A model generated the notes under the pieces. That model worked only from the letters and a program-made list of their open reading frames with translations. It ran no database searches and was not told the DNA's origin. Both the position numbers and the translations under genes were made by a program. Shown here piece after piece: positions 39 through 18,658 of a DNA stretch of 64,000 nt (the stretch's first letter is position 1; every line of letters begins with the position of its first letter). The stretch comes from an uncultured Gammaproteobacteria bacterium (lineage in GTDB: Bacteria; Pseudomonadota; Gammaproteobacteria; PS1; Pseudothioglobaceae), in NCBI GenBank assembly GCA_902511025.1, contig CABXDP010000002.1, forward strand, positions 1,466 through 65,465. Direction: 5' to 3'.

Positions 39-2339
39 CTACATTCTAACCCTAGTCTTCTCAGGATCATAAAATGGAAATCTGACTACCTTTGCAGGTA
101 ATCGTTTTTGATGTCCATCTAATTTTCCTACCTCAACTTCAGTGCCAATCTCTGACTCTGAAATTGAAATCCTACAAAGCGCAATGTTCTTTTTAAGTAT
201 TGGCGAACGCGTTGCACTTGTAATTACTCCAATTTGTTGTTTTCCAATATACACACCATCTCCATGGAGTGCAACTTCGTTTCCATCTAATTCTAACCCA
301 ACCAAAACTCTTTGTGGAGAATTCTTGCGAAGAATTAAAGATTCTTTTCCAGAAAAATCATCCTCTTTAGTTATAAGAGGAACTGTAAATGAAATGCCTG
401 CTTCAAATGGATCTGTCTGGTCACAGAACTCATATCCAGCAAAGATTAATCCCGCTTCAATTCTCAGCATATCAAGCGCATTAAGGCCTAGAGGGCAAAT
501 TTCAAACTCTTCACCAGCCTCTTCAATTGTATCCCAAACTGCCTCACAATCTTTAGGGTGTGCGAACACTTCATAACCAAGCTCACCAGAATATCCAGTT
601 CTTGAGACCATGACAGGAATACCAAACTCACCTCCAATTCGCCCTATTGTGAAACGAAACCACTTAAGGTCCTCAATCGAAGTTTGCAGTTTTGGAGTCC
701 AAATAATTTTAGAGAGCGTCTCTCTACTCTTTGGACCCTGAACGGCAACATTATGAAGCTGGTCAGTCGAAGACTTGACTCGAACATCTAAACCTTTATC
801 GTCTGCGATTTTTCTAAGCAACTTGCCACCATCATCAGAGCCACCAATCCATCTAAAGTTATTGTCATCCATTCGGAAAAGTGTCCCATCATCAACCATG
901 CAGCCATTCTCATAGCACATCGCGGAGTAAACGACCTGTCCAATTGCAAGCTTGCGGACATCTTTTGTAATGGCATACTGCATCAGAGCTTCAGCGTCTT
1001 GACCGTACACTTCAAATTTTCTAAGAGGGGCAAGATCAATCATAACAACGCCTTCACGGCACTGCCAGTACTCTTTGATTGCGCCTAAATTTGTATACTC
1101 AAGGGGCAACCAATAGCCATTATAGTTATCAAAGTTTTTTGTTAATTTAGAAGTATTTTTATGAAAACCGGTTTCTTTAGTCATAGTCGGAATGGATTGA
1201 GGGTCAGGCCTAAAAGCCGTTGCCGATGAAAAATTATTGGACTTATCATAAATCCTAACATGAATATCAGTTGGATTCCAGCCGTTTGCAGAGGTTGTAT
1301 CATCTGGGCACGCTGATGAAACGCATACGAGGTCATCTACGGCCCTTAAAAGCACAAAATCTCCTGGCCTAGACCAAGAGACATCTGAGGTTAGAGAATG
1401 GCACTCTTCAATTGCTGTATTAAAAAATAGGTTAACCGCAGCCCAATTTCTTCTGGGTTTAACTCCATATTCAGCAAGAGACGAATTAAAATTATCTGTA
1501 CAGCTAATGTGTCCTGGAAAGCCGCGATCTTCATAATACTTAGCGTTGCATGCCAGACCGAAAGTGTCATGACGACAGACTGTATCCTGAATGACTTCCA
1601 CTAAGGGAATCGAATTCTGATTATAAAACTTGTCGTGGGTCCCTGGAGCAGGATAACTTGCAAGCATCTGCGAGCGAGTCACAGTAGGATCAAGGCATAG
1701 CTCCTCATTGTTATTTAAATCTTCAACTAAAAACGCCTGAAAATCTGAGCACTGCTGACCCTCTACATCAATAATTTGAATGTATTGACCCGCCTTTACT
1801 TTATAAGCAACCGCACTAGAATCTTTGACTCGAATCTCCTTAGAGGGTTTTGCTAGAGGCTCAGGTAGCCGATCAGAAGGATTTGTAGGGTTTTTCCTTT
1901 GAACGTTAATCAAAATTTCAGTGGGTGAGTTCTGCTGATCAACCTCCATTGGACCGCCCTTTGCATCAAACACACACAAGAGGTCATGATTAATATCAAA
2001 TGATTGCCTTGTATCTGCTGGACTTGAATCTTGAAATAACTCAGCAGTATCAATATCTTTTGGTTTAATTTTATTTGAATCAAGAATTGCTCTAAGCATT
2101 TCAGAGCAGTTATCTAGAGAAACTTTATTAGAGTTATTGCTAGAATTTGTCTTCCAATTTAACGAGGACAAGGCAGAAGTTTTTTTAGAATCAAAGGCAA
2201 GTACACTGCACTTTTGATCACCTTCAACATCAACTATTTCTACTGAATCGCCTTTTTTTAAATCAATTGAAATCGCTTCACCGCCATGAATCTGATAGGT
2301 TTCACAATCACCATCATATTTAATATTCGAAACTCTCAT
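39..2339 (-). CDS. tdm: Trimethylamine N-oxide demethylase (DUF1989 + GcvT aminomethyltransferase domains)
   Basis: N-terminal DUF1989-type region with Cys motifs RHDTFGLAC / HISCTDNF / SACPDD, and a C-terminal GcvT fold (SRTGYSGELGYE, LRIEAG, FYDPEKTR). This architecture is characteristic of Tdm, and the gene adjoins gmaS-mgsABC. Confidence 0.85.
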   Translation of the reverse strand: MRVSNIKYDGDCETYQIHGGEAISIDLKKGDSVEIVDVEGDQKCSVLAFDSKKTSALSSLNWKTNSSNNSNKVSLDNCSEMLRAILDSNKIKPKDIDTAELFQDSSPADTRQSFDINHDLLCVFDAKGGPMEVDQQNSPTEILINVQRKNPTNPSDRLPEPLAKPSKEIRVKDSSAVAYKVKAGQYIQIIDVEGQQCSDFQAFLVEDLNNNEELCLDPTVTRSQMLASYPAPGTHDKFYNQNSIPLVEVIQDTVCRHDTFGLACNAKYYEDRGFPGHISCTDNFNSSLAEYGVKPRRNWAAVNLFFNTAIEECHSLTSDVSWSRPGDFVLLRAVDDLVCVSSACPDDTTSANGWNPTDIHVRIYDKSNNFSSATAFRPDPQSIPTMTKETGFHKNTSKLTKNFDNYNGYWLPLEYTNLGAIKEYWQCREGVVMIDLAPLRKFEVYGQDAEALMQYAITKDVRKLAIGQVVYSAMCYENGCMVDDGTLFRMDDNNFRWIGGSDDGGKLLRKIADDKGLDVRVKSSTDQLHNVAVQGPKSRETLSKIIWTPKLQTSIEDLKWFRFTIGRIGGEFGIPVMVSRTGYSGELGYEVFAHPKDCEAVWDTIEEAGEEFEICPLGLNALDMLRIEAGLIFAGYEFCDQTDPFEAGISFTVPLITKEDDFSGKESLILRKNSPQRVLVGLELDGNEVALHGDGVYIGKQQIGVITSATRSPILKKNIALCRISISESEIGTEVEVGKLDGHQKRLPAKVVRFPFYDPEKTRVRM

Positions 2340-2440
2340 TAATTAAAAACCCCTTTTAATAATGTTTGAGTATACATAGAATTACTTAAAGATTATTTTG
2401 AATAAACTAATTCCCGTACTCAAAAGATTTTTTTAGTTTA

Positions 2441-2517
2441 TTCAGCACCTCAGGGGGTGAGGTGCCGAAAAACCAAGGAGAGAATTTATAGAGAGTGCCT
2501 CTTTAAAATCTCCCCTT
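2441..2517 (-). terminator. Two tandem stem-loops between the mgs operon and tdm; the first on the minus strand is a likely terminator
   Basis: Minus strand: AAGGGGAGATTTTAAAGAG-GCACT-CTCTATAAATTCTCTCCTT followed by GGTTTTT, then TTCGGCACCTCA-CCCCC-TGAGGTGCTGAA. Confidence 0.55.
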
Positions 2518-2535
2518 TTAATTCACTTACCCAAA

Positions 2536-2922
2536 TTAAAATTTACGGTAAGCGTTATTTAGATCAACCATTGGATGATTTTCTGACATTTGGAACTTGA
2601 TTAAAAGCTCACGCGCAATCATGTCTCTCTCTTGCTGATTATCAGGCAGTTTAATGGTGTCAGGAATCGTCACCCAGCCGTTGATGTTTCTATCAAAAAC
2701 AGCCGCTTGATCACCCTCATATCCCATATGAATATCCTCTAACCAGTTCAGATCTTTCCATCCCATTTTGTCTATATACTCCTGTAAGAAAGGGGTGATA
2801 AACTTAAGGTCAGGAACGAGATTTACGTCATATCGATAACCAATATGCTGACCAATGTCTTTTTCGCGATCAGTTCCTAGGCCATCATCTCCAACAACAA
2901 ACTCTTCTTCTTTATTGCTCAT
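2536..2922 (-). CDS. Hypothetical 128-aa acidic protein, last gene of the gmaS-mgsABC operon
   Basis: Start reassigned to the ATG at 2922 (MSNKEEEF), which follows an AGGAGA RBS just after the mgsC stop. The upstream extension in the ORF track overlaps mgsC. Confidence 0.8.
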   Translation of the reverse strand: MSNKEEEFVVGDDGLGTDREKDIGQHIGYRYDVNLVPDLKFITPFLQEYIDKMGWKDLNWLEDIHMGYEGDQAAVFDRNINGWVTIPDTIKLPDNQQERDMIARELLIKFQMSENHPMVDLNNAYRKF

Positions 2923-2936
2923 AATTTCTCCTATCC

Positions 2937-4274
2937 TTAAAAGCGTGTCAAATCTGGACGGCCAACGGTGTGCTGAGAACCTGCAATAGGGACTTGAGCA
3001 CATGCTGAGGCTTCCATCGTTAAAGCAGCAAGATCTTCTGGCTCTAGTGAGTGAATATTCGTTTTACCACAAGCACGCGCCATCATCTGGCACTCAATGG
3101 CTAAAGTATGTAAAAAGTTGTAAACTCTCTCTGAAGCTGCATCAGGGTCTAGTCTCTGTCTAAGCACTGGGTCTTGAGTTGCAACACCCACTGGGCAGCG
3201 ACCTGTATGACAGTGATAACACTCGCCCGCGTTGACGCCCATTTCATTAGGGTAATCCGCTTCAGGTATATCTCTGTTACAGTTAAGCGCCATAAGAGAA
3301 GCGTGTCCAATCGCAACCGCATCTGCACCAAGTGCGACCGCTTTAGCGACGTCACCACCATTTCTAATACCACCAGCATAGACCAGTGAAATTCTTCCTG
3401 TCATGCCAACATCATCGATTGCTCTTCTTGCTTGACGAATTGCAGCGATCCCAGGAACACCTGTCTCCTCAGTAGCGATATGAGGTCCAGCAGCTGTACC
3501 ACCTTCCATTCCATCGATATAAATACTGTCACAACCCGTTTTTGCAGCCATACGAACGTCGTCGTAGACACGAGCAGCACCCAGCTTCAATTGGATAGGA
3601 ATTTGTCCATCCGTTGCTTCACGAATCTCTTCAATTTTAAGAGCCAAATCATCTGGACCTAACCAGTCTGGGTGTCTAGCAGGCGATCTTTGGTCAATAC
3701 CCGCTGGAAGCGATCTCATCTCAGCAACCTGGTCTGTTACTTTTTGTCCCATCAAGTGTCCACCCAGCCCCACTTTACAACCCTGTCCAATAAAGAACTC
3801 AACACTGTCAGCTAGACGTAAATGCTGAGGGTTGAAGCCATAGCGTGACTGAATACACTGATAAAACCACTTACTTGAGTAGCGTCTCTCATCAGGAATC
3901 ATTCCTCCCTCACCAGAGCAAGTCGCTGTTCCAGCCATAGTTGCGCCCCGAGCCAGAGCTGTTTTAGCTTCATAACTCAGCGCTCCAAAACTCATACCGG
4001 TAATGTAAATGGGTATGTCGAGCTCTAGTGGTCTAGGTGCTTCAGGACCGATAATGGTTTTTGTTAAACACTTTTCTCTGTAGCCTTCAATAACAAAGCG
4101 CGTCAGAGTACCTGGCATAAAAGTCAAGTCGTCCCATGTTGGAATCTTTTTGAAAAGAGAGAAACCTCTCATTCGGTAACGTCCCAAATCAGATTTAATG
4201 TGGATGTCATCCATCACACCTTTAGGAAAGATAAAACTTTTACCTAGTCTGTTTTTTTCATCTATATCACTCAT
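2937..4274 (-). CDS. mgsC: N-methylglutamate synthase subunit C (FMN-binding glutamate synthase family)
   Basis: GMSFGALS, SGEGG, GIDQRSP.RHPDW, CYHCHTGRCPVGVATQDP Fe-S motif; operon with mgsA/B and gmaS. Confidence 0.85.
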   Translation of the reverse strand: MSDIDEKNRLGKSFIFPKGVMDDIHIKSDLGRYRMRGFSLFKKIPTWDDLTFMPGTLTRFVIEGYREKCLTKTIIGPEAPRPLELDIPIYITGMSFGALSYEAKTALARGATMAGTATCSGEGGMIPDERRYSSKWFYQCIQSRYGFNPQHLRLADSVEFFIGQGCKVGLGGHLMGQKVTDQVAEMRSLPAGIDQRSPARHPDWLGPDDLALKIEEIREATDGQIPIQLKLGAARVYDDVRMAAKTGCDSIYIDGMEGGTAAGPHIATEETGVPGIAAIRQARRAIDDVGMTGRISLVYAGGIRNGGDVAKAVALGADAVAIGHASLMALNCNRDIPEADYPNEMGVNAGECYHCHTGRCPVGVATQDPVLRQRLDPDAASERVYNFLHTLAIECQMMARACGKTNIHSLEPEDLAALTMEASACAQVPIAGSQHTVGRPDLTRF

Positions 4275-4307
4275 AATTTTTCCTTTATTTAATTTGTTAA
4301 AGTCCGA

Positions 4308-5150
4308 TTAAAGAATAAGTTTTTTCTCTGCAGGCTCAAGATTATCGTAGTTCCATAGTGTCTTACCAGAAACATACTTTTGCATCTTTTCTACGCCATT
4401 TGGAGCTTTCATATCATAATTACCAAGCTTTTCAGTTAAGTAGCGTACGTCTAGCTCTGTCATCTCACCAGGAACACAGTCCACTCCAAGCTCTTCAACT
4501 TCACCGCCCACATAGATCGTGCCGTCATACATTGAATCACCTAAGTTCATACCTGCATCTCCAAGCACAATCATTCGACCACGCTGCATCATAAAGCCTG
4601 AGAAAGCGCCCGTTTTACCACCAACAATAATGGTTCCGCCTTTTTGGTCAATACCTGTTCGAGCACCAACACTCCCTTTACATACGAGGTCTCCACCACG
4701 AATTGCAGCACCAAACGTTGAACCGGCATTACCATCAATAACGACCGTTCCAGCCATCATGTTTTCAGCGCATGACCAGCCTACTCGTCCCTTGATATGA
4801 ACATTAGGCCCATCAATCAGGCCACAACCAAAGTAACCTAAGCTGTCTGAAAAAGTTAAATTAAGACGATTCAAAATACCTACGCCAACACCATGCCTTG
4901 ACATTGGATTGTCAACGGTAATATTACCGATACCGCTTTCCATTAATGCTCTGATCTCACGATTAATTTCTCTTGGCGTCATATCTAAAGCATCAATCGT
5001 AGCGCTCTTGTTAGTGTCTACTTCAAACGAATGAAAATATGTCAGGTTTGCACTTTCATCAATCGAGAAAAATTTCTGCTGCGTTCTTCCTTTGAGCTGC
5101 TCCTGATGGAGCCCCATCTCATAAGACGAATCTTTTTTTAGTTCTGCCAT
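4308..5150 (-). CDS. mgsB: N-methylglutamate synthase subunit B (GXGXG beta-helix domain)
   Basis: Repeated GxxGxxxG motifs (AENMMAGTVVIDGNAG, GFMMQRGRMIVLGDAG); lies between mgsA and mgsC. Confidence 0.85.
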   Translation of the reverse strand: MAELKKDSSYEMGLHQEQLKGRTQQKFFSIDESANLTYFHSFEVDTNKSATIDALDMTPREINREIRALMESGIGNITVDNPMSRHGVGVGILNRLNLTFSDSLGYFGCGLIDGPNVHIKGRVGWSCAENMMAGTVVIDGNAGSTFGAAIRGGDLVCKGSVGARTGIDQKGGTIIVGGKTGAFSGFMMQRGRMIVLGDAGMNLGDSMYDGTIYVGGEVEELGVDCVPGEMTELDVRYLTEKLGNYDMKAPNGVEKMQKYVSGKTLWNYDNLEPAEKKLIL

Positions 5151-6076
5151 ACTTTTACCTCTCCGTGATAAGGGTCAAATGTTTCAATTCGGTGATCAAA
5201 TAATGTCCTGATTGCGACCTCCTCTGAAGCCAAAGCAATCATATCATCACCCTCGTATACAACCATTGGTTTGGCGGCCATAACATCCTTAGCCATACCC
5301 AGTTGATCTTTTGTCGCTACTAGATATGTAAATACACCATCTAAATATTCAACAGAGTCTTTCATAGCTGACTCTAAATCTTTTCCCTGGCTCATTCTTT
5401 CTGCAATATAAACTGCTATGAGTTCTGAGTCGCAGTTCGAAGAAAAGCGATGACCTTTAAGTTCTAGTGCGCGTCTGTTGGTCCAGTAGTTCGTTAGCTG
5501 GCCGTTGTGAACTACAGCAACGTCACTAAATGGGTATGCCCAGTAAGGGTGAGCAGAACGAATATCGACATCTGACTCGGTTGCCATCCTTGTGTGACCA
5601 ATTCCATGTGTCCCATTAAATTGATTCAGTCCATACTGCTCAGAAACAACTGCAGCATCGCCAAGGTCCTTGATTAATTCGAGTGAGTTACCAATAGATA
5701 GAATCTCAACACCCTCTATGTCTTCAACGAAGTCAGCTAACTTTTTCATATCGCCTGAGAATTGAATCTCATAGCGATGCGAGTACTCAGTCGCGCTTTC
5801 TTTCTTGACAATCTTAGCGCCCAGATCATCCATTCTAGAATTCACAGCAGCAACCCTATCTTCAATTGCCGCATGTATATCAAAACTTCCCTCAAGATCA
5901 GCTGCCTCAGCGACCTTGAACCTTACTACATTATTGCCATTATCTTCGCCATACATAGCGTACCCAGTTGAATCTGGCCCCCTATGCTTCAAAGCCTGCA
6001 ACATGGCTGTCATTTGCTCACCAATGTTGACATCTTTGCCGGCATTCTTATGAATAATTCCTGCTATTCCGCACAT
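5138..6076 (-). CDS. mgsA: N-methylglutamate synthase subunit A (class II glutamine amidotransferase)
   Basis: MCGIAG N-terminal nucleophile, HRGPDSTG, GHTRMATES, VHNGQL, DSE. Confidence 0.85.
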   Translation of the reverse strand: MCGIAGIIHKNAGKDVNIGEQMTAMLQALKHRGPDSTGYAMYGEDNGNNVVRFKVAEAADLEGSFDIHAAIEDRVAAVNSRMDDLGAKIVKKESATEYSHRYEIQFSGDMKKLADFVEDIEGVEILSIGNSLELIKDLGDAAVVSEQYGLNQFNGTHGIGHTRMATESDVDIRSAHPYWAYPFSDVAVVHNGQLTNYWTNRRALELKGHRFSSNCDSELIAVYIAERMSQGKDLESAMKDSVEYLDGVFTYLVATKDQLGMAKDVMAAKPMVVYEGDDMIALASEEVAIRTLFDHRIETFDPYHGEVKVWQN

Positions 6077-6102
6077 AAAATAATCTCCCTTTCCCTGAAA
6101 AT

Positions 6103-6122
6103 TGCCCGCCGTTAGGCGGGCA
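6103..6122 (-). terminator. Intercistronic GC-rich hairpin between gmaS and mgsA (mRNA stabiliser or partial terminator)
   Basis: TGCCCGCC-gtta-GGCGGGCA perfect 8-bp stem; only a short T-run follows on the minus strand. Confidence 0.5.
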
Positions 6123-6149
6123 CTCTAAATTAACTTAAACGAAACTAGC

Positions 6150-7628
6150 CTAAGGCAAGCAGTCCAAATAAGTTTCAATATCCCAATCTGTAACCGTGTG
6201 ATTGAAACGCTCCCACTCATCAGTCTTGTAATGGTGGTAAACCTTATACATCTCATCTGGCATAGCCGATTTGATGACCTCATCATTTGCAAGCTCAGTC
6301 ATTGCATCACCAAGCGACATGGGTAACTTCTTAACATCTTTACCAGCCTCCATCGCTTCGTAAATGTTTCTCTCTTCAGCTTCACCTGCATCGATATTGT
6401 TATCAATTCCATCACCCATCGCTTTTAATAGAGCGGATCCCATTAGGTATGGATTAACCATAGAGTCTACAGAGCGATACTCAAAGCGGCCTGGAGCCGA
6501 AACGCGAAGCGCACAAGTTCTATTTTGGTAACCCCAGTCAGCAAAGATTGGAGCCCAAAAACCTGTATCCCATAATCTTCTGTATGAGTTCACTGTTGAA
6601 GAACCAATAGATGTCAGTGCTGGTAAATGCTTAATCACACCGCCGATTGAATTCAGACCAATTGGACCCGGCATTTTTTCATCAATGGATGGATCCGGCA
6701 TGAATGTATTTTCACCACCCTCTTTATAAGTAAAGACACCTGGCATTCCAGGCAGCTCTCCATCGCCTGTAGCAATTTCTGGATGAAAAACATCTTTACC
6801 ACCCTTCCACAAAGACATGTTATGGTGACAGCCCGAAGCCGAAACGCCCATAAATGGTTTACTCATAAAGCAAGCAATCAATCCAAACTCACGAGCAACC
6901 TGAGCACAAATTTGACGATAAGTCGTTAAACGATCCGCGTTCCTTAGAACGTCGTCGAACTGAGTATTAAGCTCTAACTGGCCCGGTGCATCTTCGTGGT
7001 CGCCCTGAATAATATCCAGACCCATCTGCTCAGAGTACTCAATAACCTTCATGAAAACTGGACGAAGCTCTTCAAATTGATCGATATGGTAACAGTTCGG
7101 CTTTGTTACTCCGCCATTTGTACCGCCATCTTCACCACGCTTAAGCCACATCATTTCGGGCTCAGTACCGCAGCGCATATCTAGACCATACTGGTCTTGG
7201 AATTCTTTGTGCAGTCTGTAGAGATTTCCTCTGCAATCAGAGGTTAATGCTGCGCCCGGGTTATCGCGCTCTTCACGGTTTCTGTAAAGTCTACAAAAAA
7301 CCCTAGCAACTCTCTTGTCCCATGGAAGTTGGCAGAACGTATCTGGGTCAGGGATACCGACCAGTTCTGATGATTCTGGACCATAACCGATGTAGCTTCC
7401 GTGGCGATCAACGAATAAGTTTGCTGTTGAGCCATAAACCAATTGAAATCCTTTCTCAGCTAATCTTTCCCAGTGTCGAGCAGGAATACCTTTTCCTACA
7501 ATACGACCGGTAACTGATACAAATTGATAATATACATATGTAACTCCTAAAGCATCGATTTTAGCTTTTACTTCTTTTACAAGTTTATCGCGTCCAGGTT
7601 CATTAACGTGTTGTTCTAAATCTGTCAT
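6150..7628 (-). CDS. gmaS: Gamma-glutamylmethylamide synthetase (glutamine synthetase family)
   Basis: GS fold (GTEPE, DHEDAPGQLE, FMSKPF, SGCHHNMS, NRTCALR, EYRSVD) with KPNCY and FWAP (Trp in place of the GS Glu flap) as in GmaS; first gene of the mgsABC operon. Confidence 0.8.
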   Translation of the reverse strand: MTDLEQHVNEPGRDKLVKEVKAKIDALGVTYVYYQFVSVTGRIVGKGIPARHWERLAEKGFQLVYGSTANLFVDRHGSYIGYGPESSELVGIPDPDTFCQLPWDKRVARVFCRLYRNREERDNPGAALTSDCRGNLYRLHKEFQDQYGLDMRCGTEPEMMWLKRGEDGGTNGGVTKPNCYHIDQFEELRPVFMKVIEYSEQMGLDIIQGDHEDAPGQLELNTQFDDVLRNADRLTTYRQICAQVAREFGLIACFMSKPFMGVSASGCHHNMSLWKGGKDVFHPEIATGDGELPGMPGVFTYKEGGENTFMPDPSIDEKMPGPIGLNSIGGVIKHLPALTSIGSSTVNSYRRLWDTGFWAPIFADWGYQNRTCALRVSAPGRFEYRSVDSMVNPYLMGSALLKAMGDGIDNNIDAGEAEERNIYEAMEAGKDVKKLPMSLGDAMTELANDEVIKSAMPDEMYKVYHHYKTDEWERFNHTVTDWDIETYLDCLP

Positions 7629-7992: not shown

Positions 7993-8643
7993 TCAATCAG
8001 ATGCATTAGAAGAGATAATCGTCAGAAACTGGCACTCATCACTGATGATCTTTTTTGGGCCATGCGGAGTGTCAGAATCAAAATACAGCGAGTCCCCTTT
8101 TTTGAAGTGGTAGACCTTGTTCCCATAAAAATAATCCATCTGCCCCTTGAGCATGTAGATGAACTCTACTCCCTTATGCTGAAATTCAGGAAACTCATAG
8201 TCTCTTGACGTTATTGTAATTAAACACGGCTCAACCTTTAAAGATCCACCAACCGTATGCCCTAATAATTGATAGTGTCGACTCTCATCTGAGCCTGCTC
8301 TCTCTATCGTTAATCCTTTACCTGACTTGATGAAAGTCGGCTCAACATCTTTATCATGCTGCTTAAATAAGGAGGTGATAGAGATATTGAGCGCGTGACA
8401 GATCGACTGTATTGTTTTAAGTGATGCACTAATCTGGCCGTTCTCTATTTTTGAGAGCATACTGGCTGAGAGTAGCGACTGTTTTGATAGCTGCTGAAGA
8501 GTAACGCCAGCATTCTTTCTTGCCATACGCACCTGCTTGCCTATAGAGGCCTCTAACTGCTTATCACTTCCAAAGCTTGGAAGATTTTTATTGATAATGG
8601 AAACGCCCTTCTCTTTAGGCATTGGTTTTTTTGTAGCTGCCAC
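7993..8643 (-). CDS. XRE-family transcriptional regulator with C-terminal cupin domain
   Basis: HTH_3 (TLQQLS..SASMLSKIENGQISASL) plus cupin (FQHKGVEFIYML..GDSLYFDSDTPH); upstream of gmaS. Confidence 0.9.
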   Translation of the reverse strand: MAATKKPMPKEKGVSIINKNLPSFGSDKQLEASIGKQVRMARKNAGVTLQQLSKQSLLSASMLSKIENGQISASLKTIQSICHALNISITSLFKQHDKDVEPTFIKSGKGLTIERAGSDESRHYQLLGHTVGGSLKVEPCLITITSRDYEFPEFQHKGVEFIYMLKGQMDYFYGNKVYHFKKGDSLYFDSDTPHGPKKIISDECQFLTIISSNASD

Positions 8644-8653
8644 AATACAATAA

Positions 8654-8688
8654 TTTACTTAGAATAAAAAAAATTATACTACAAGGAA
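8654..8688. promoter_or_regulatory. Putative tandem operator (TTMCT-N3-AGGAA) upstream of the XRE regulator
   Basis: tttacttagaataaaaaaaattatactacaaggaa aligns without gaps to the amt upstream site at 16541-16575. Confidence 0.45.
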
Positions 8689-8735
8689 AATTACTAGATT
8701 GAAGAATTGAACATTAACGAATGAGAAATATTGAA

Positions 8736-9752
8736 TTAAACTCTCAAGCGTCTACTTCTTCTCTGCTTAATGGGCTTGGAATCGTCGCCCTGAAAGATTA
8801 ATTTTGATCCCTCAGACATAAAACCAACCCTGTCTTCAATTTCTTGGAGTGTTGGCGGCGGCGAAACACTATGCCGATCCATTGCTTTTCGCATAGCCCT
8901 GACATGATCAAAACTGGTTCCGCAACAACCCCCAATAATCTTGGCGCCAGAGTTCATGGCAATCTGCACATACCGCGACATGAGCTCTTCTGTTCCTGAG
9001 TACATAATACTGCCATTCACAAACTCTGGAATGCCGCAGTTGGCTTTTGAAATGACAATCGTTCCAGGGTCAACATTTTTTGAAATATCATTAATGGTTG
9101 CCAACAGATCTGGCGCTCCAATTCCGCAGTTAGCTCCAAACCCACTCAGATTTAAATCCTTAGATCTTTTGGCAAGGTTGGAGGGGGTAATACCCATCAT
9201 CGTTTTTCCTGCAGTATCAAAACTCATTGTTGCGCAGACTGGAAGCCCAATATCCTTGACCGCTTCCATTGCAGCTTCTAACTCTTCCATAGCGTACATG
9301 GTCTCAAGCCAGAGCACATCAACGCCTCCCTCTGCAAGACCCTCCGCTTGAGCTTTAAAGGCATCCGCTGCCTCCTTCGGAGTCATCAGCCCATGAGGCT
9401 CAATCATCTCACCTGTAGGTCCCATTGCTCCTGCAACAATGACCTGTCTGTCAGCCTGATCCGCTACCTCTCTGGCAATCTGTCCTGCTGCTTTGTTGAG
9501 TTCAAAAACCCTCGTTTCAAGATTATGTAATTTGAGTCTGAAAGATGTACCACCAAAACTATTGGTTAAGAATAAATCAGATCCAGCATCAACAAACCCT
9601 TGATGTAAAGCGCGTATTCGATCTTTGTGATCTACATTCCATGGCTCCGGAGGATCACCAGTCTCGAGACCCATCCCAAACAAGTTCGTTCCAGTTGCCC
9701 CATCAGCCAGAATGTGGCTTTTTTCCTCAAGGATTTTTAAAAAATTATTCAT
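8736..9752 (-). CDS. bmt: Betaine-homocysteine S-methyltransferase / homocysteine S-methyltransferase domain protein
   Basis: LADGATGTNLF, TNSFGG, GANCG, IIGGCCGT Zn motifs; stand-alone domain with a basic RRSRR tail. Confidence 0.8.
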   Translation of the reverse strand: MNNFLKILEEKSHILADGATGTNLFGMGLETGDPPEPWNVDHKDRIRALHQGFVDAGSDLFLTNSFGGTSFRLKLHNLETRVFELNKAAGQIAREVADQADRQVIVAGAMGPTGEMIEPHGLMTPKEAADAFKAQAEGLAEGGVDVLWLETMYAMEELEAAMEAVKDIGLPVCATMSFDTAGKTMMGITPSNLAKRSKDLNLSGFGANCGIGAPDLLATINDISKNVDPGTIVISKANCGIPEFVNGSIMYSGTEELMSRYVQIAMNSGAKIIGGCCGTSFDHVRAMRKAMDRHSVSPPPTLQEIEDRVGFMSEGSKLIFQGDDSKPIKQRRSRRLRV

Positions 9753-14034: not shown

Positions 14035-14826
14035 ATGAGCAGTTTAAAAGAAGATTACGAAAAGAATGGTTTTTATTCGCCGATCTCTGTCATCGATACA
14101 TCTCTTGCACGAGAGTATCGTAACATCCTTGAGAAAACTGAATCAAACATTGAGTTACTAAACTATCGCTACAAGATTCATACTGCGCTTGATTTCGCTT
14201 ACCAACTAGCAATCAATGAAAATCTCTTGGATAAGATTGAGTCTCTCATAGGACCCAACATTCTGCTTTATAACACTTCATTTGTCATCAAGGAGCCGCA
14301 CTCTAAAACACACATCAGTTGGCATCAAGATTTGACCTATTGGGGTTTTAACGCCGAGAAACAGGTGGCTGCTTGGGTCGCCCTGTCTGATGCAACTGAG
14401 GAGAATGGGTGCATGCACATGATTCCTGGAAGCCACAAAAATGGAAAAATTCCTCATAGAACTACGGTTGACATACACAACCTTCTTCATCATGGCCAAA
14501 CGATTGAAAATGTCTCTGAAAGTGATTCGGTAAGCGTCCCATTAAAGGCTGGAGAGGCCTCTCTTCATCACGGCTGGACAATGCACACCTCGTACCCAAA
14601 TGAAAGCAGTAATCGAAGAATTGGATTAACCATAAATTACATTTCTACGGACATGTATCAGACTCAAACTGATAATGACTCAGCCATGCTAGTGAGGGGT
14701 GTTGATGAATATAAGCATTTTGCAATGGACGAGCCTCCGACCCAGGAGTTTGATGAGGCTGCCTGGATTAAGTTACAACAAAAAGAGGCGCTCATTCATC
14801 AAACTTACAACAAAATGAAAACATAA
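14035..14826 (+). CDS. Phytanoyl-CoA dioxygenase (PhyH) family Fe(II)/2-oxoglutarate dioxygenase
   Basis: SWHQD..W, ENGCMHMIPGSH, H.S.PN.S..RR motifs. Confidence 0.9.
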   Translation: MSSLKEDYEKNGFYSPISVIDTSLAREYRNILEKTESNIELLNYRYKIHTALDFAYQLAINENLLDKIESLIGPNILLYNTSFVIKEPHSKTHISWHQDLTYWGFNAEKQVAAWVALSDATEENGCMHMIPGSHKNGKIPHRTTVDIHNLLHHGQTIENVSESDSVSVPLKAGEASLHHGWTMHTSYPNESSNRRIGLTINYISTDMYQTQTDNDSAMLVRGVDEYKHFAMDEPPTQEFDEAAWIKLQQKEALIHQTYNKMKT

Positions 14827-14840
14827 CAATCTCATTCAAC

Positions 14841-14882
14841 AAAAAAAGGGCAGTATTTACATACCGCCCTTTTCGTTTTTTT
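14841..14882. terminator. Bidirectional rho-independent terminator
   Basis: A7-GGGCAGTAT-ttac-ATACCGCCC-TTTT between convergent genes. Confidence 0.8.
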
Positions 14883-14897
14883 ACTTTTTACAGATTT

Positions 14898-15077
14898 TTA
14901 CTTGTAGTGATCCTGCTCGTCAGAGTTGCCTTTAACTAAGACTCCTACTAACATTACCGTAGCAATCACTGTCCACCAGCCAGCGGCTGATGAACCAGCA
15001 CCGATATACATGCCCATGTCCATCCAAGCACCATCAGCATCCATAAGCTCTGTAAAAGATTCAGCAAAATATCCCAT
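14898..15077 (-). CDS. Unannotated 59-aa single-pass membrane protein co-transcribed with amt
   Basis: MGYFAESFTELMDADGAWMDMGMYIGAGSSAAGWWTVIATVMLVGVLVKGNSDEQDHYK*; AAGGAG RBS; starts 18 nt after the amt stop and ends just before the terminator. Confidence 0.8.
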   Translation of the reverse strand: MGYFAESFTELMDADGAWMDMGMYIGAGSSAAGWWTVIATVMLVGVLVKGNSDEQDHYK

Positions 15078-15095
15078 ATTAATTCTCCTTAAAAA

Positions 15096-16499
15096 TTAAG
15101 ATTCAGATTCAGGGCTCGCCATACCTTGAGGGTATGCCTGTGCAGGAACTTTCACTGCATCAAGTCCTCTTTCTTGAACTGCGTCTGGGATACGTAACAT
15201 GCCAGCTTTGTTCACTATCCAAGACACAATGTATCCTGGAACAAAACCTAGTAAGAACATGACAACTGCACCGACAATTTGGCCAAATAGGCTAATTGCA
15301 ACAGTATCTTCTGGAGCAAAAGCGCCAAGTCCTGGAACACCAGAACCCAGAATACCAAGCATTACAACGCCAAATAGTCCAATCGTTCCGTGAACCGTAA
15401 CACAACCAACAGCATCATCGATACCAAGACCCTCTAGCCAGTCCGCACACGGCTTAAGAATAATACCAGCAAGGATAGAAACAGCTATAACCGTTGAACC
15501 AAAGTACACATCAAGACCCGAGGCTACAGAAATAATACCTGCTAGACAGCCAGACATCATCCAGAAAGGATCTCTAGTCATAACCCAAGCACCAATAATA
15601 CCGCCAGCAGCAGCTAGAGGAACGTTAAATGCTAGTGCCGAAAGTGTCATTGGAGTACCATAAATGGTAGTCGCTCTGTCACTATACCAACTCCAACCTT
15701 CTCCAGGCAGAATGATACAAGCCATTAGGAATCCGAAGAATCCAACAATAATCAGCATTAAGCCAGTTACTGTAAGTGGCATGTTGTGACCTGCCAGATG
15801 ATTCGCAGAGCCGTCAGCGTTGAATTTTCCTACACGTGGGCCCAAGTTCAATAGAACACCCAGCGCGAAGAATCCAGCGACAGCGTGCACAAGACCAGCA
15901 GCACCAAAGTCGTGATAACCAAACTCAGTGACTAACCATCCGTCAGCGTGCCATCCCCATGCCGCTGCAATACCCCATGCGGCGGTACCTAGCACAACCG
16001 CACAGATTACAAAACCTACGGTTTGTATTCTCTCGATTAGTGCACCAGAGGCAATCGACGCAGTTGTTGCCGCGAATAGAGCAAAAGCACCCCAGAATAC
16101 GCCTGACGCATTGTCACCCATATTTGGTCCCATGTACTGAGCAGAATCGCCCCAGGCCCATGCGATAGCATTTGCATACTCTAGACCTGATATCTCCATA
16201 TAGCCGGCACCAGCACTAAAGTCTAATGGCCAAGTTGGCAGGGCAAAGTAGAACCACCAACCAAATAGGTACCATGCAGCAATTGTAAACGCGAACGCGA
16301 GTAAATTTTTAACACCCGATGACAGTACATTCTGCAAGCGAGTAGCACCCATCTCATAGAGAAGGAAGCCAGCATGAATGAGAACCATCAAAGGAATTGT
16401 TACGTAATAGTACGCCTCAGCAAACATCCTGTTTGTGACCTCGGCAGCACCTTTTATAGCGGCTACTTCAGCCGTTAAAGCTAATATTTGATCTTCCAA
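15096..16499 (-). CDS. amt: Amt/Mep/Rh-family transporter, atypical (possible methylammonium transporter)
   Basis: SGALIERI, YHDFGAAGLVH, LGPRVGKF, IDDAVGCVTVHG (twin His retained); TTG start after AAGGAG. Confidence 0.9.
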   Translation of the reverse strand: MEDQILALTAEVAAIKGAAEVTNRMFAEAYYYVTIPLMVLIHAGFLLYEMGATRLQNVLSSGVKNLLAFAFTIAAWYLFGWWFYFALPTWPLDFSAGAGYMEISGLEYANAIAWAWGDSAQYMGPNMGDNASGVFWGAFALFAATTASIASGALIERIQTVGFVICAVVLGTAAWGIAAAWGWHADGWLVTEFGYHDFGAAGLVHAVAGFFALGVLLNLGPRVGKFNADGSANHLAGHNMPLTVTGLMLIIVGFFGFLMACIILPGEGWSWYSDRATTIYGTPMTLSALAFNVPLAAAGGIIGAWVMTRDPFWMMSGCLAGIISVASGLDVYFGSTVIAVSILAGIILKPCADWLEGLGIDDAVGCVTVHGTIGLFGVVMLGILGSGVPGLGAFAPEDTVAISLFGQIVGAVVMFLLGFVPGYIVSWIVNKAGMLRIPDAVQERGLDAVKVPAQAYPQGMASPESES

Positions 16500-16540: not shown

Positions 16541-16575
16541 TTTACTTGTAGGAAATTTTATATCCCTACAAGGAA
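16541..16575. promoter_or_regulatory. Tandem pseudo-palindromic operator upstream of amt
   Basis: TTACT-TGT-AGGAA (16542-16554) and TCCCT-ACA-AGGAA (16563-16575), each one mismatch from TTCCT-N3-AGGAA, with starts 21 bp apart. Confidence 0.55.
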
Positions 16576-16746
16576 CGAGTATATAGAAAGTAGTTCATCA
16601 AATCTATAAAAATTATCTTTAAATTGGTTAAAAAATAGAAACTTTATAAAGATATGTATGAAAGAACAACTGGTAATCAAAATATAAAAAATCAAATATT
16701 TTTTATACTAGATTTCAAATTGAACGGTATTGATAAAAATTCTTAT

Positions 16747-17923: not shown

Positions 17924-18658
17924 TTAGTGAAAGACTAAGTCACACCAGTTCTTAAATAGAGTGAGTGATGCTTTTTTATTGGCCTTTAAGTTTTTTTCAA
18001 CCTCACCCTCAAAGTCACTCAAACCCTTAGTACCTAGAAGGTTCTCAAGCGCTTCTGGAATTCCAGGTATGCACATCCATCCCTCAAAAGTGTGACTACA
18101 AACTTCTGGATGGAATTGGCACGAATAGGCGTTCTCTGAGACCTGCATGATGTGATTGATACATTGATTGGATGAGGCTAGTATTTTAGAGCCCTGAGGA
18201 GCCTGAGTGACCTCCACTAAATGAACGTTAACCCATCTATCAGAGACATCAAAACCTTTTAATAAAGGATGATTTTGTCCCTCTTTAGTTGGCGTTATTT
18301 CGAACAAACCGACTTCATGGTTATCAGTTCTCTCTGCCTTTCCGCCTAATGCTTCTGCGAGGAGTTGATGGCCTAGACAAATACCAAGAAAAGGCATTTT
18401 AAAATCCCTCACAGCTTGACTAATGGCTATTTTTTCATCGATGAGCCATGGGTACTTATTTTCCTCCCAAACATTCATAGAGCCTCCCATGACCCAGAGA
18501 GCGTCATAGTGCTTTAATTTTGGAACTTGCTCGCCAGCGTGAAGGTCTACTTCATGAAATGAAATATTCATACTCTCAGCAAAATCTCTGAAAATGCCAG
18601 GATTCTGAGAAGACATATGTTTGAAAACAAGGATATTTTTTTTCAAATCAAATCTCAA
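17924..18658 (-). CDS. Class I glutamine amidotransferase-like protein (stand-alone)
   Basis: MGGSMNV, FLGICLGHQLL, QFHPE Cys-His-Glu triad. Confidence 0.9.
   Translation of the reverse strand: MRFDLKKNILVFKHMSSQNPGIFRDFAESMNISFHEVDLHAGEQVPKLKHYDALWVMGGSMNVWEENKYPWLIDEKIAISQAVRDFKMPFLGICLGHQLLAEALGGKAERTDNHEVGLFEITPTKEGQNHPLLKGFDVSDRWVNVHLVEVTQAPQGSKILASSNQCINHIMQVSENAYSCQFHPEVCSHTFEGWMCIPGIPEALENLLGTKGLSDFEGEVEKNLKANKKASLTLFKNWCDLVFH

What the first reader, a model, noticed from the sequence alone, without database searches (positions are those of the whole stretch)
14898..15077. Hidden small membrane protein as a candidate Amt partner in place of GlnK
Seen: a 59-aa ORF below the ORF-track cut-off, with a strong AAGGAG RBS, positioned between amt and the shared terminator. 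It has an acidic/aromatic N-terminus, a YIGAGS motif, one TM helix (GWWTVIATVMLVGVLV) and a short charged tail. Known: amtB is usually paired with the PII gene glnK, which is absent here. Inference: an undescribed accessory subunit or regulator of a methylamine-type Amt subfamily. This is my best candidate for a new system in the window.
Basis: partly seen in the sequence, partly recalled or inferred. Interest (0 to 1): 0.75.

Follow-up and report, generated by a model that had tools for sequence, protein, structure and literature searches.

The report
Small membrane partner of amine-linked Amt
A tiny, unnamed membrane protein is encoded directly behind every member we found of one branch of ammonium-transporter-like genes tied to methylamine breakdown, and modelling places it in the groove between the transporter's subunits, so this is probably a two-part transporter where the family was thought to be one-part.

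Summary
The 59-aa ORF (14898-15077, minus) is a real gene: AAGGAG 7 nt upstream, dN/dS 0.18, one membrane helix, N-out/C-in. The window is from Ca. Pseudothioglobus (SUP05). All 163 Amt genes of one branch with enough downstream DNA carry a homologous 51-84-aa ORF; none of 29 other Amt paralogues or E. coli AmtB does. The branch occurs only in gmaS-positive genomes (11/11 of 400 sampled), mostly in methylated-amine clusters, and has a remodelled pore entrance (S219C, N216L/Y, W212F). A complex model (ipSAE 0.69, best control 0.00) puts the small protein in the lipid-facing groove between two protomers, on branch-specific periplasmic loops. This is where Rh proteins have their extra helix M0, not where GlnK binds. 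'In place of GlnK' holds for gene order only: complete relatives keep glnK-amtB elsewhere. No Pfam, NCBIfam or PDB family matches, and no paper found describes it; RefSeq calls it 'hypothetical protein' (probably SPO1577 in Ruegeria pomeroyi). Best reading: a dedicated structural subunit of an Amt for methylated amines. Binding, substrate and need are predicted, not measured.

The parts
14898..15077 (-). Small single-pass membrane protein, 59 aa, N-out/C-in; candidate accessory subunit of the Amt
14934..14990 (-). Codons 30-48 of the small ORF: transmembrane helix
   Evidence: hydropathy 1.87; helix with pLDDT 84-91 in the AF2 read-through model
15085..15090 (-). Shine-Dalgarno AAGGAG, 7 nt before the small ORF
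   Evidence: an SD-like purine run precedes the ORF in homologous loci
15096..16499 (-). Amt-family transporter of the gmaS-associated branch, 467 aa; keeps F107, W148, D160, F215 and both His (E. coli numbering); carries F103A, Q104F, W212F, N216L, S219C
14844..14873 (.). Bidirectional intrinsic-terminator-like hairpin shared with the convergent phyH-like gene (14035-14826, plus)
   Evidence: z -6.1 and -4.8
16578..16606 (-). Candidate sigma-70 promoter of the two-gene operon: TAGATT (16606-16601), 17 nt, TATACT (16583-16578)
   Evidence: the -10 hexamer is nearly invariant in 15 aligned relatives; function not tested
16545..16572 (-). Inverted repeat just behind the -10 box; probable 5' hairpin of the transcript
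   Evidence: arms change together in L008 and L015 (read by eye)

Best explanation
The ORF encodes a dedicated small subunit of one Amt branch. SHOWN here: it is a conserved protein-coding gene; it follows every member of the branch we could examine and no other Amt; each paralogous copy in a genome keeps its own small gene; the branch has longer periplasmic loops and an altered pore entrance, and occurs only in gmaS-positive genomes. PREDICTED: its helix lies in the lipid-facing groove between two protomers (M7 and M9 of one; M2, M4 and the C-tail of the next); its N-terminal W/Y/F motif caps the periplasmic loops M6-7, M8-9, M10-11 and M2-3; its tail with E54 lies near the Amt C-tail. INFERRED: three copies per trimer act as a protein wedge, at the place where Rh proteins have helix M0 and AmtB binds phosphatidylglycerol, and stabilise or couple the trimer so that it transports. 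The substrate is most likely mono- or dimethylamine taken up for the GmaS/Mgs and Dmm pathway. My odds by step: real protein 0.97; binds this Amt 0.85; structural rather than switch-like, given binding, 0.7; methylated amine as substrate 0.65. The confidence below is for the subunit claim, not the substrate.
For: Linkage: 80/80 GTDB loci (78 whole, 2 cut by contig ends); 163/163 pairs over alpha- and gammaproteobacteria, down to 37% Amt identity, against 0/29 other Amts and E. coli AmtB. Reverse search: 77/80 metagenome loci found through the small protein have amt directly upstream and 3 are cut; three distant hits also follow an amt. Tree: the small-gene Amts form one branch (SH-aLRT 93, length 1.79, one change), and the three small-protein subtypes follow three Amt subclades. 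Selection: dN/dS 0.18 on 22 disjoint pairs; substitutions by codon position 120/95/328. Complex: ipSAE 0.69 (runs 0.76, 0.65, 0.69) against best control 0.00; this mark was reached by 58 of 80 solved complexes and 2 of 110 mismatched pairs; runs share at least 73% of contacts; partner pLDDT at least 63. The contacted loops are branch-specific: median lengths 51/30/22 against 36/18/11 residues in other Amts, with invariant D330, P389, W116, M123, D129-type residues. Covariation: 5 of the top 10 inter-protein MI-APC pairs fall on predicted interface residues, 1.2-1.4 expected (weak). Context: 69/106 wider loci hold gmaS, mgs or dmm genes and 0/106 hold a PII gene; 11/11 branch-positive genomes have gmaS against 40/389 others. 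Literature: Rh M0 contacts M7 and M9 of the neighbour (PMC3832391, PMC10794816); POPG binds at AmtB subunit interfaces and is needed for activity (PMC6338640); AmtB S219A raises methylammonium uptake (PMC10433425).
Against: No experiment shows the protein, the complex or the substrate. The complex job was unlike the tool's calibration (two Amt copies, my own alignments). Its controls were unrelated 63-residue proteins, not known membrane helices, so a generic tendency to put any helix in this groove is not excluded; solved Rh trimers have M0 there and may bias the model, although the small protein runs in the opposite direction. Covariation is confounded by relatedness (effective number about 77). 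Subtype 3 is only moderately similar to the others (HHalign 90% to subtype 1, 48% to subtype 2) and was not modelled. Most gmaS-positive genomes (40 of 51) lack the pair, so it is not required for methylamine use. In Pseudothioglobus the pair stands apart from gmaS (other contig).
Confidence: 0.6

Rival explanations
1. It binds the Amt but is a tuner or on/off regulator (AcrZ-, MgtS- or sP36-like), the functional stand-in for GlnK that the first reader proposed: it changes specificity, gating or turnover through the Amt C-tail.
For: The predicted contacts include the Amt C-tail (residues 434-450), which mediates cooperativity in AmtB (PMC10433425). No PII gene lies beside any of 106 loci. Small-protein modulators of transporters are common (PMC10710835).
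Against: It shares one operon with its target, with no separate promoter seen, and has no sensing domain. It is never lost in 163 cases. Most of the conserved surface is periplasmic. GlnK is present elsewhere in relatives.
Confidence: 0.2
2. It is a subunit as above, but the complex is an Rh-like ammonia valve that releases surplus ammonium made by demethylation, or a plain ammonium carrier, and not an amine importer. (A rival on the substrate only.)
For: S219 and N216 are lost, as parts of the S1 site are in Rh proteins (PMC10433425). Roseobacters release ammonium when they grow on methylamines (PMC7574528). The helix sits where Rh M0 sits.
Against: W148, F107 and D160 are invariant in 163/163, so a cation-binding site remains. 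The changes make the entrance more hydrophobic, and S219A favours methylammonium in AmtB. The same genomes hold canonical ammonium Amts.
Confidence: 0.2
3. It is a membrane anchor or adaptor whose main partner is another protein of the cluster (GmaS, Mgs, Dmm) and which couples uptake to metabolism; or an insertion chaperone that binds only transiently.
For: The invariant E54 and, in subtype 3, a longer charged tail face the cytoplasm. [quoted passage not shown]
Against: It travels with amt even where no cluster gene is near (37 of 106 loci). Two amt copies in one genome each keep their own small gene. The tail is only about 10 residues long in subtype 1.
Confidence: 0.1
4. It is not a functional protein: a chance ORF, a read-through extension of amt, or a conserved RNA element.
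For: It is short, has no family match, and there is no proteomic evidence here.
Against: dN/dS 0.18 with third-position bias; own SD and ATG; the spacer is in frame with amt in only 41 of 78 loci and often holds further stops; no Rfam match near a gathering score; chance rate below 1%.
Confidence: 0.02

Closest known systems
AcrZ-AcrB (and YajC, WatS1, LucB, MgtS): small membrane proteins bound to transporters (PMC10710835)
   Same: About 50 aa, one helix, binds the membrane domain of an oligomeric transporter at the lipid face.
   Different: No sequence match. The partner is an Amt. The gene is fixed directly behind its partner. The predicted site bridges two protomers and includes a periplasmic cap.
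Helix M0 (TM0) of Rh proteins such as RhCG, RhAG, RhD
   Same: Lies at the subunit interface and contacts M7 and M9 of the neighbour (PMC3832391, PMC10794816), the helices the small protein is predicted to touch.
   Different: M0 is part of the Rh chain and, from the known topology, runs in-to-out; this is a separate gene product running out-to-in. It is an analogue; no homology was seen.
GlnK-AmtB
   Same: Small partner gene adjacent to an amt; presumably 3:3 with the trimer.
   Different: GlnK is a soluble PII trimer that senses effectors and plugs the cytoplasmic vestibule (PMC10433425). This protein has no PII match, is a membrane protein and is predicted at another site. The two occur with different Amt paralogues of the same genomes.
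sP36 of Methanosarcina mazei (PMC10714827)
   Same: About 60 aa; binds an Amt.
   Different: sP36 is cytoplasmic, oligomeric, moves to the membrane on ammonium upshift and recruits GlnK1; ours is an integral membrane helix co-encoded with the Amt. Sequences were not compared directly.
'amtB' in methylated-amine clusters: SPO1578 of Ruegeria pomeroyi (PMC5520151); gmas-mgsABC-amt of Pseudomonas sp. C5pp (PMC8292978)
   Same: Same gene context as the branch; the C5pp gene has been called a methylamine transporter.
   Different: These papers do not describe the small gene or the branch. SPO1577, between amtB and mgsA, is listed as 'hypothetical protein'; that it is our protein is inferred from identical gene order in Ruegeria conchae, not from its sequence.

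Membership tests
Amt/Mep/Rh family (the large gene) | PF00909 match and 11-helix Amt fold | tested here: met
   E 8e-51, over cut-off; VIA Z 25.5, rmsd 3.5 A, 358 aligned to 8qpf
Amt/Mep/Rh family (the large gene) | Twin His, Phe gate, D160, W148 | tested here: met
   H205/H370, F142/F257, D197, W183 kept in at least 162 of 163 sequences
Canonical AmtB | S1 site with S219, plus N216, W212, F103 | tested here: not met
   S219C 161/163, N216L/Y, W212F, F103A; below the cut-offs of TIGR00836, TIGR03644 and NF007947
Canonical AmtB | glnK adjacent | tested here: not met
   0/106 loci, against 14 of 27 other Amts
PII/GlnK (the small protein) | PF00543 fold, about 112 aa, T-loop, soluble | tested here: not met
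   no Pfam match, 59 aa, membrane helix
Any described small membrane protein family (AcrZ, KdpF, MgtS, FixQ, DUFs) | Profile match over the curated cut-off | tested here: not met
   57 members scanned: only scattered weak hits, best E 0.001 for FixQ in 3 members; subtypes 2 and 3 also unmatched; the nearest ESM Atlas clusters are 'hypothetical protein'
Small accessory subunit of a transporter (works-like) | Co-encoded with the transporter and conserved with it | tested here: met
Small accessory subunit of a transporter (works-like) | Physical binding to the transporter | tested here: inconclusive
   model supports but does not show it: ipSAE 0.69 vs best control 0.00; mark reached by 58/80 solved and 2/110 mismatched pairs
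Small accessory subunit of a transporter (works-like) | Effect on stability, assembly or transport | not testable with these tools
   needs knock-out and transport assay
Rh helix M0 | Covalent N-terminal helix, in-to-out orientation | tested here: not met
   separate gene downstream; K/R are C-terminal in 104/104 subtype-1 proteins; no fused form among longer proteins, weak evidence
sP36 | Cytoplasmic oligomer that recruits GlnK; sequence family | not tested
   the sP36 sequence was not held; topology differs by description (PMC10714827)
Methylamine transporter | Measured transport of methylated amines | not testable with these tools
   only context and pore residues

The most novel reading that the evidence does not exclude
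This branch is the first Amt/Mep/Rh transporter with an obligate second subunit: a 3+3 complex in which a separately encoded helix takes the place of Rh helix M0 and is needed for selective uptake of methylated amines, the missing mono-/dimethylamine importer of marine and soil proteobacteria, with the three subtypes possibly serving different amines.
Probability: 0.35. Interest if true: 0.85.

Novelty: new variant of a known kind. Interest (0 to 1): 0.72.

Why it matters
Amt/Mep/Rh proteins are treated as self-sufficient trimers whose known bacterial protein partner is GlnK. A widespread branch (over 5,000 sequence clusters at E below 1e-60 to one member) with its own membrane subunit would change that picture and give a protein probe of the inter-subunit groove where lipids and Rh M0 act. 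It also names a concrete candidate for methylamine or dimethylamine uptake in Roseobacter, SUP05, SAR116 and Pseudomonas; I found no such transporter described for these groups in the held literature. Practically, expressing the 'amtB' of these clusters alone may fail for want of the small gene. The test is direct in R. pomeroyi DSS-3 (SPO1578 with SPO1577).

Tried and rejected
Pfam, NCBIfam, PDB-sequence and ESM Atlas searches gave no named family. A search for longer or fused forms found none, which is weak evidence. Read-through fusion was rejected: the spacer frame is not conserved. An AF2 fold of an artificial read-through Amt+small construct (code 27, used only to get a paired alignment) was low-confidence (mean pLDDT 59); the fold search matched only the Amt part, so it says nothing on binding. 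Mean-field DCA timed out; MI-APC within subtype 1 alone showed little enrichment (2 of top 10). An E54-K450 salt bridge cannot be general: position 450 is Glu in 36 of 163. Apparent exceptions to linkage (L019, L063, L237/G405, L114, L120, L124) are contig ends. Rfam: one chance-level CsrC hit, 15 bits against 61. Metatranscriptome contigs: RNA libraries of three studies hold amt and the small ORF, and one contig (14878-15654) bridges both; the flanking genes had no cover in three runs, but the runs were picked with this stretch and contigs cannot show transcription or strand. A second phylum draw returned the same genomes. Literature searches for an Amt accessory subunit, a methylamine transporter, or SPO1577/1578 found no description; subscription journals are largely not held. 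The RhCG structure paper was not held. Range outside Pseudomonadota was not established.

Full report
Observation. It has one hydrophobic stretch at residues 30-48. A hairpin at 14844-14873 folds far better than shuffles on both strands and separates it from a convergent phyH-like gene. A conserved TAGATT-17-TATACT element lies upstream of amt, so amt and the small gene look like a two-gene operon. The nearest genomes are Ca. Pseudothioglobus/Thioglobus; the assembly is 66% complete. In this genome only 3 of 358 long ORFs, this one included, have a comparable small hydrophobic ORF behind them.

It is a real gene. All 80 GTDB loci with the closest Amts (66-98% identity) have a homologous ORF 11-53 nt behind the stop; 78 are whole and 2 are cut by contig ends. 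On 22 disjoint pairs dN/dS is 0.18 (Amt 0.09), with substitutions 120/95/328 by codon position. The spacer is in frame with amt in only 41 of 78 loci, which rules out read-through. A profile search finds 76 clusters at 50% identity. No Pfam, NCBIfam or PDB family matches, and RefSeq annotates homologues as 'hypothetical protein'.

It belongs to one Amt branch. I searched with the Amt alone, then looked downstream. In 400 Pseudomonadota genomes 11 had a hit at E below 1e-60, and all 11 had the small ORF. Wider samples gave 163 distinct pairs, down to 37% Amt identity, with no intact exception; none of 29 other Amt paralogues from the same genomes, nor E. coli AmtB, had such an ORF under the same filter. 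Amt scores against the branch profile fall into two groups, 214 or more and 140 or less, so the split does not rest on the small gene. Searching the other way, 77 of 80 metagenome loci found through the small protein have amt directly upstream and 3 are cut. In the tree the small-gene Amts form one branch (SH-aLRT 93, quick method), and three small-protein subtypes follow three subclades. The subtypes share W18, Y/F24 and E54 and align by HHalign at 98%, 90% and 48% probability. Genomes with two copies keep a small gene behind each. Alpha- and gammaproteobacterial rows mix in every subclade and the pair occurs on plasmids, which suggests that it moves as a unit; direction was not tested.

The branch is tied to methylated amines. 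In Rhodobacteraceae the pair sits between gmaS-mgsABC and dmmDABC; 69 of 106 wider loci hold such genes and none holds a PII gene. All 11 branch-positive genomes have gmaS, against 40 of 389 others (11 genomes in 7 families, and kin are not independent). The window's genome has gmaS-mgs on another contig, and a TMAO demethylase at 39-2339 in the window. The R. pomeroyi cluster has 'amtB' SPO1578 followed by hypothetical SPO1577 (PMC5520151), and the cluster as a whole is induced by methylated amines (PMC13390433). Against E. coli AmtB the branch keeps F107, W148, D160, F215 and both histidines but has F103A, Q104F, W212F, N216L/Y and S219C. S219A raises methylammonium uptake in AmtB (PMC10433425). 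Amine uptake is therefore the likeliest role; ammonium release is the main rival.

Predicted complex. With two Amt copies and the small protein, ipSAE was 0.69 (0.76, 0.65, 0.69) and the best control 0.00; the mark was reached by 58 of 80 solved complexes and 2 of 110 mismatched pairs; runs share at least 73% of contacts and partner pLDDT is at least 63. The counts hold only roughly for this job. The small protein touches residues 275-288, 302-309, 330-342 and 384-392 of one protomer and 71-78, 115-129, 159-165 and 434-450 of the other. Mapped on AmtB these are the M6-7 loop, M7, the M8-9 loop with M9, and the M10-11 loop; and M2, the M2-3 loop, M4 and the C-tail. This gives N-out/C-in, as the positive-inside rule does. 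The three periplasmic loops are longer in the branch than in other Amts and carry branch-invariant residues. Five of the ten strongest inter-protein covariation pairs fall on these residues, where 1.2-1.4 are expected; this is weak, tree-confounded support. The groove is where Rh helix M0 lies against M7 and M9 of the neighbour (PMC3832391, PMC10794816) and near where POPG binds AmtB as a proposed wedge (PMC6338640). The chief caveats are that the controls were not membrane helices and that Rh structures may bias the placement.

On GlnK. Relatives, including a single-chromosome Pseudothioglobus genome, carry a second, canonical amt beside glnK, so the lack of glnK in G000 is likely due to incompleteness. 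GlnK blocks the cytoplasmic vestibule (PMC10433425), and the archaeal sP36 is a cytoplasmic adaptor for GlnK (PMC10714827). The small protein matches neither in place or in build. It replaces glnK in gene order, not evidently in function.

Mechanism. Most likely the two genes are co-expressed, and three small helices fill the three inter-protomer grooves, clamp the enlarged periplasmic loops and contact the C-tails, so stabilising or coupling a trimer that imports mono- or dimethylamine for GmaS/Dmm (0.6 for the subunit claim). Rivals are a tuner or inhibitor (0.2), the same complex as an ammonia valve (0.2, substrate only), an adaptor to cluster enzymes or a chaperone (0.1), and no function (0.02).

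Verdict. Observation confirmed; interpretation partly supported. Small helices on transporters are a known kind (AcrZ and others, PMC10710835), but I found none described for Amt/Mep/Rh, and the family is unnamed: a new variant of a known kind, interest 0.72. All functional steps still need experiment.

Noticed in passing
window 39-7628 (minus): TMAO demethylase (39-2339, over the NCBIfam cut-off) downstream of a second, divergent gmaS/mgsABC-like set: GS-like 6150-7628 (below the gmaS cut-off, about 30% to GmaS), GATase-II 5138-6076, GXGXG 4308-5150, FMN glutamate-synthase-like 2937-4274. The true gmaS-mgs cluster is on contig C5. The substrate of this paralogous set is unknown.
   Followed up: partly
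window 7993-9752 (minus): XRE-cupin regulator, of the kind seen in Roseobacter methylamine clusters, and a betaine-homocysteine methyltransferase; with tdm these make a methylated-amine region split from amt by sucA-sucB-phyH.
   Followed up: no
window 16545-16572 (minus): Inverted repeat right after the -10 box, with arms that change together in relatives; contigs of two RNA-library runs end at 16543. Probable 5' hairpin, or an operator.
   Followed up: partly
window 17924-18658 (minus): Class I glutamine amidotransferase upstream of amt; a gene with the same label follows gmaS in Ruegeria conchae. Possibly a remnant of the amine cluster; orthology not tested.
   Followed up: no
window 14035-14826 (plus): The phyH-like dioxygenase between sucB and the terminator is present in only a few related loci (L002, L005, L016, L046); a variable insertion.
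   Followed up: no
L208, L209 (G288:C10:30496-31731; G036:C19:12473-13693): A very long-branched Amt paralogue without the small gene; this pair appears to account for the twin-His replacements (Tyr/Phe, 2 of 29) in the alignment. In G288 it lies within 8 kb of the branch Amt and gmaS.
   Followed up: no
L331 (G948:C23), L330 (G861:C294), L318 (G535:C18): Two different subtypes of the Amt-small pair lie side by side or within about 12 kb, each with its own small gene; this hints at different substrates per subtype.
   Followed up: partly
L081:1189-1413, L084:1253-1405: In two distant loci the pair is followed by the start of a conserved membrane protein that looks like an amino-acid permease (by eye; no Pfam hit on the 51-aa fragment).
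   Followed up: no
L224 (Pseudomonas aeruginosa RW109 plasmid 1): The Amt-small pair with dmm-like genes sits on a 555-kb plasmid of P. aeruginosa.
   Followed up: no
window 16440-16499 (minus): Subtype-1 Amts begin with a conserved TTG/GTG start and an amphipathic, coiled-coil-like N-terminal segment before M1 instead of a signal peptide.
   Followed up: no
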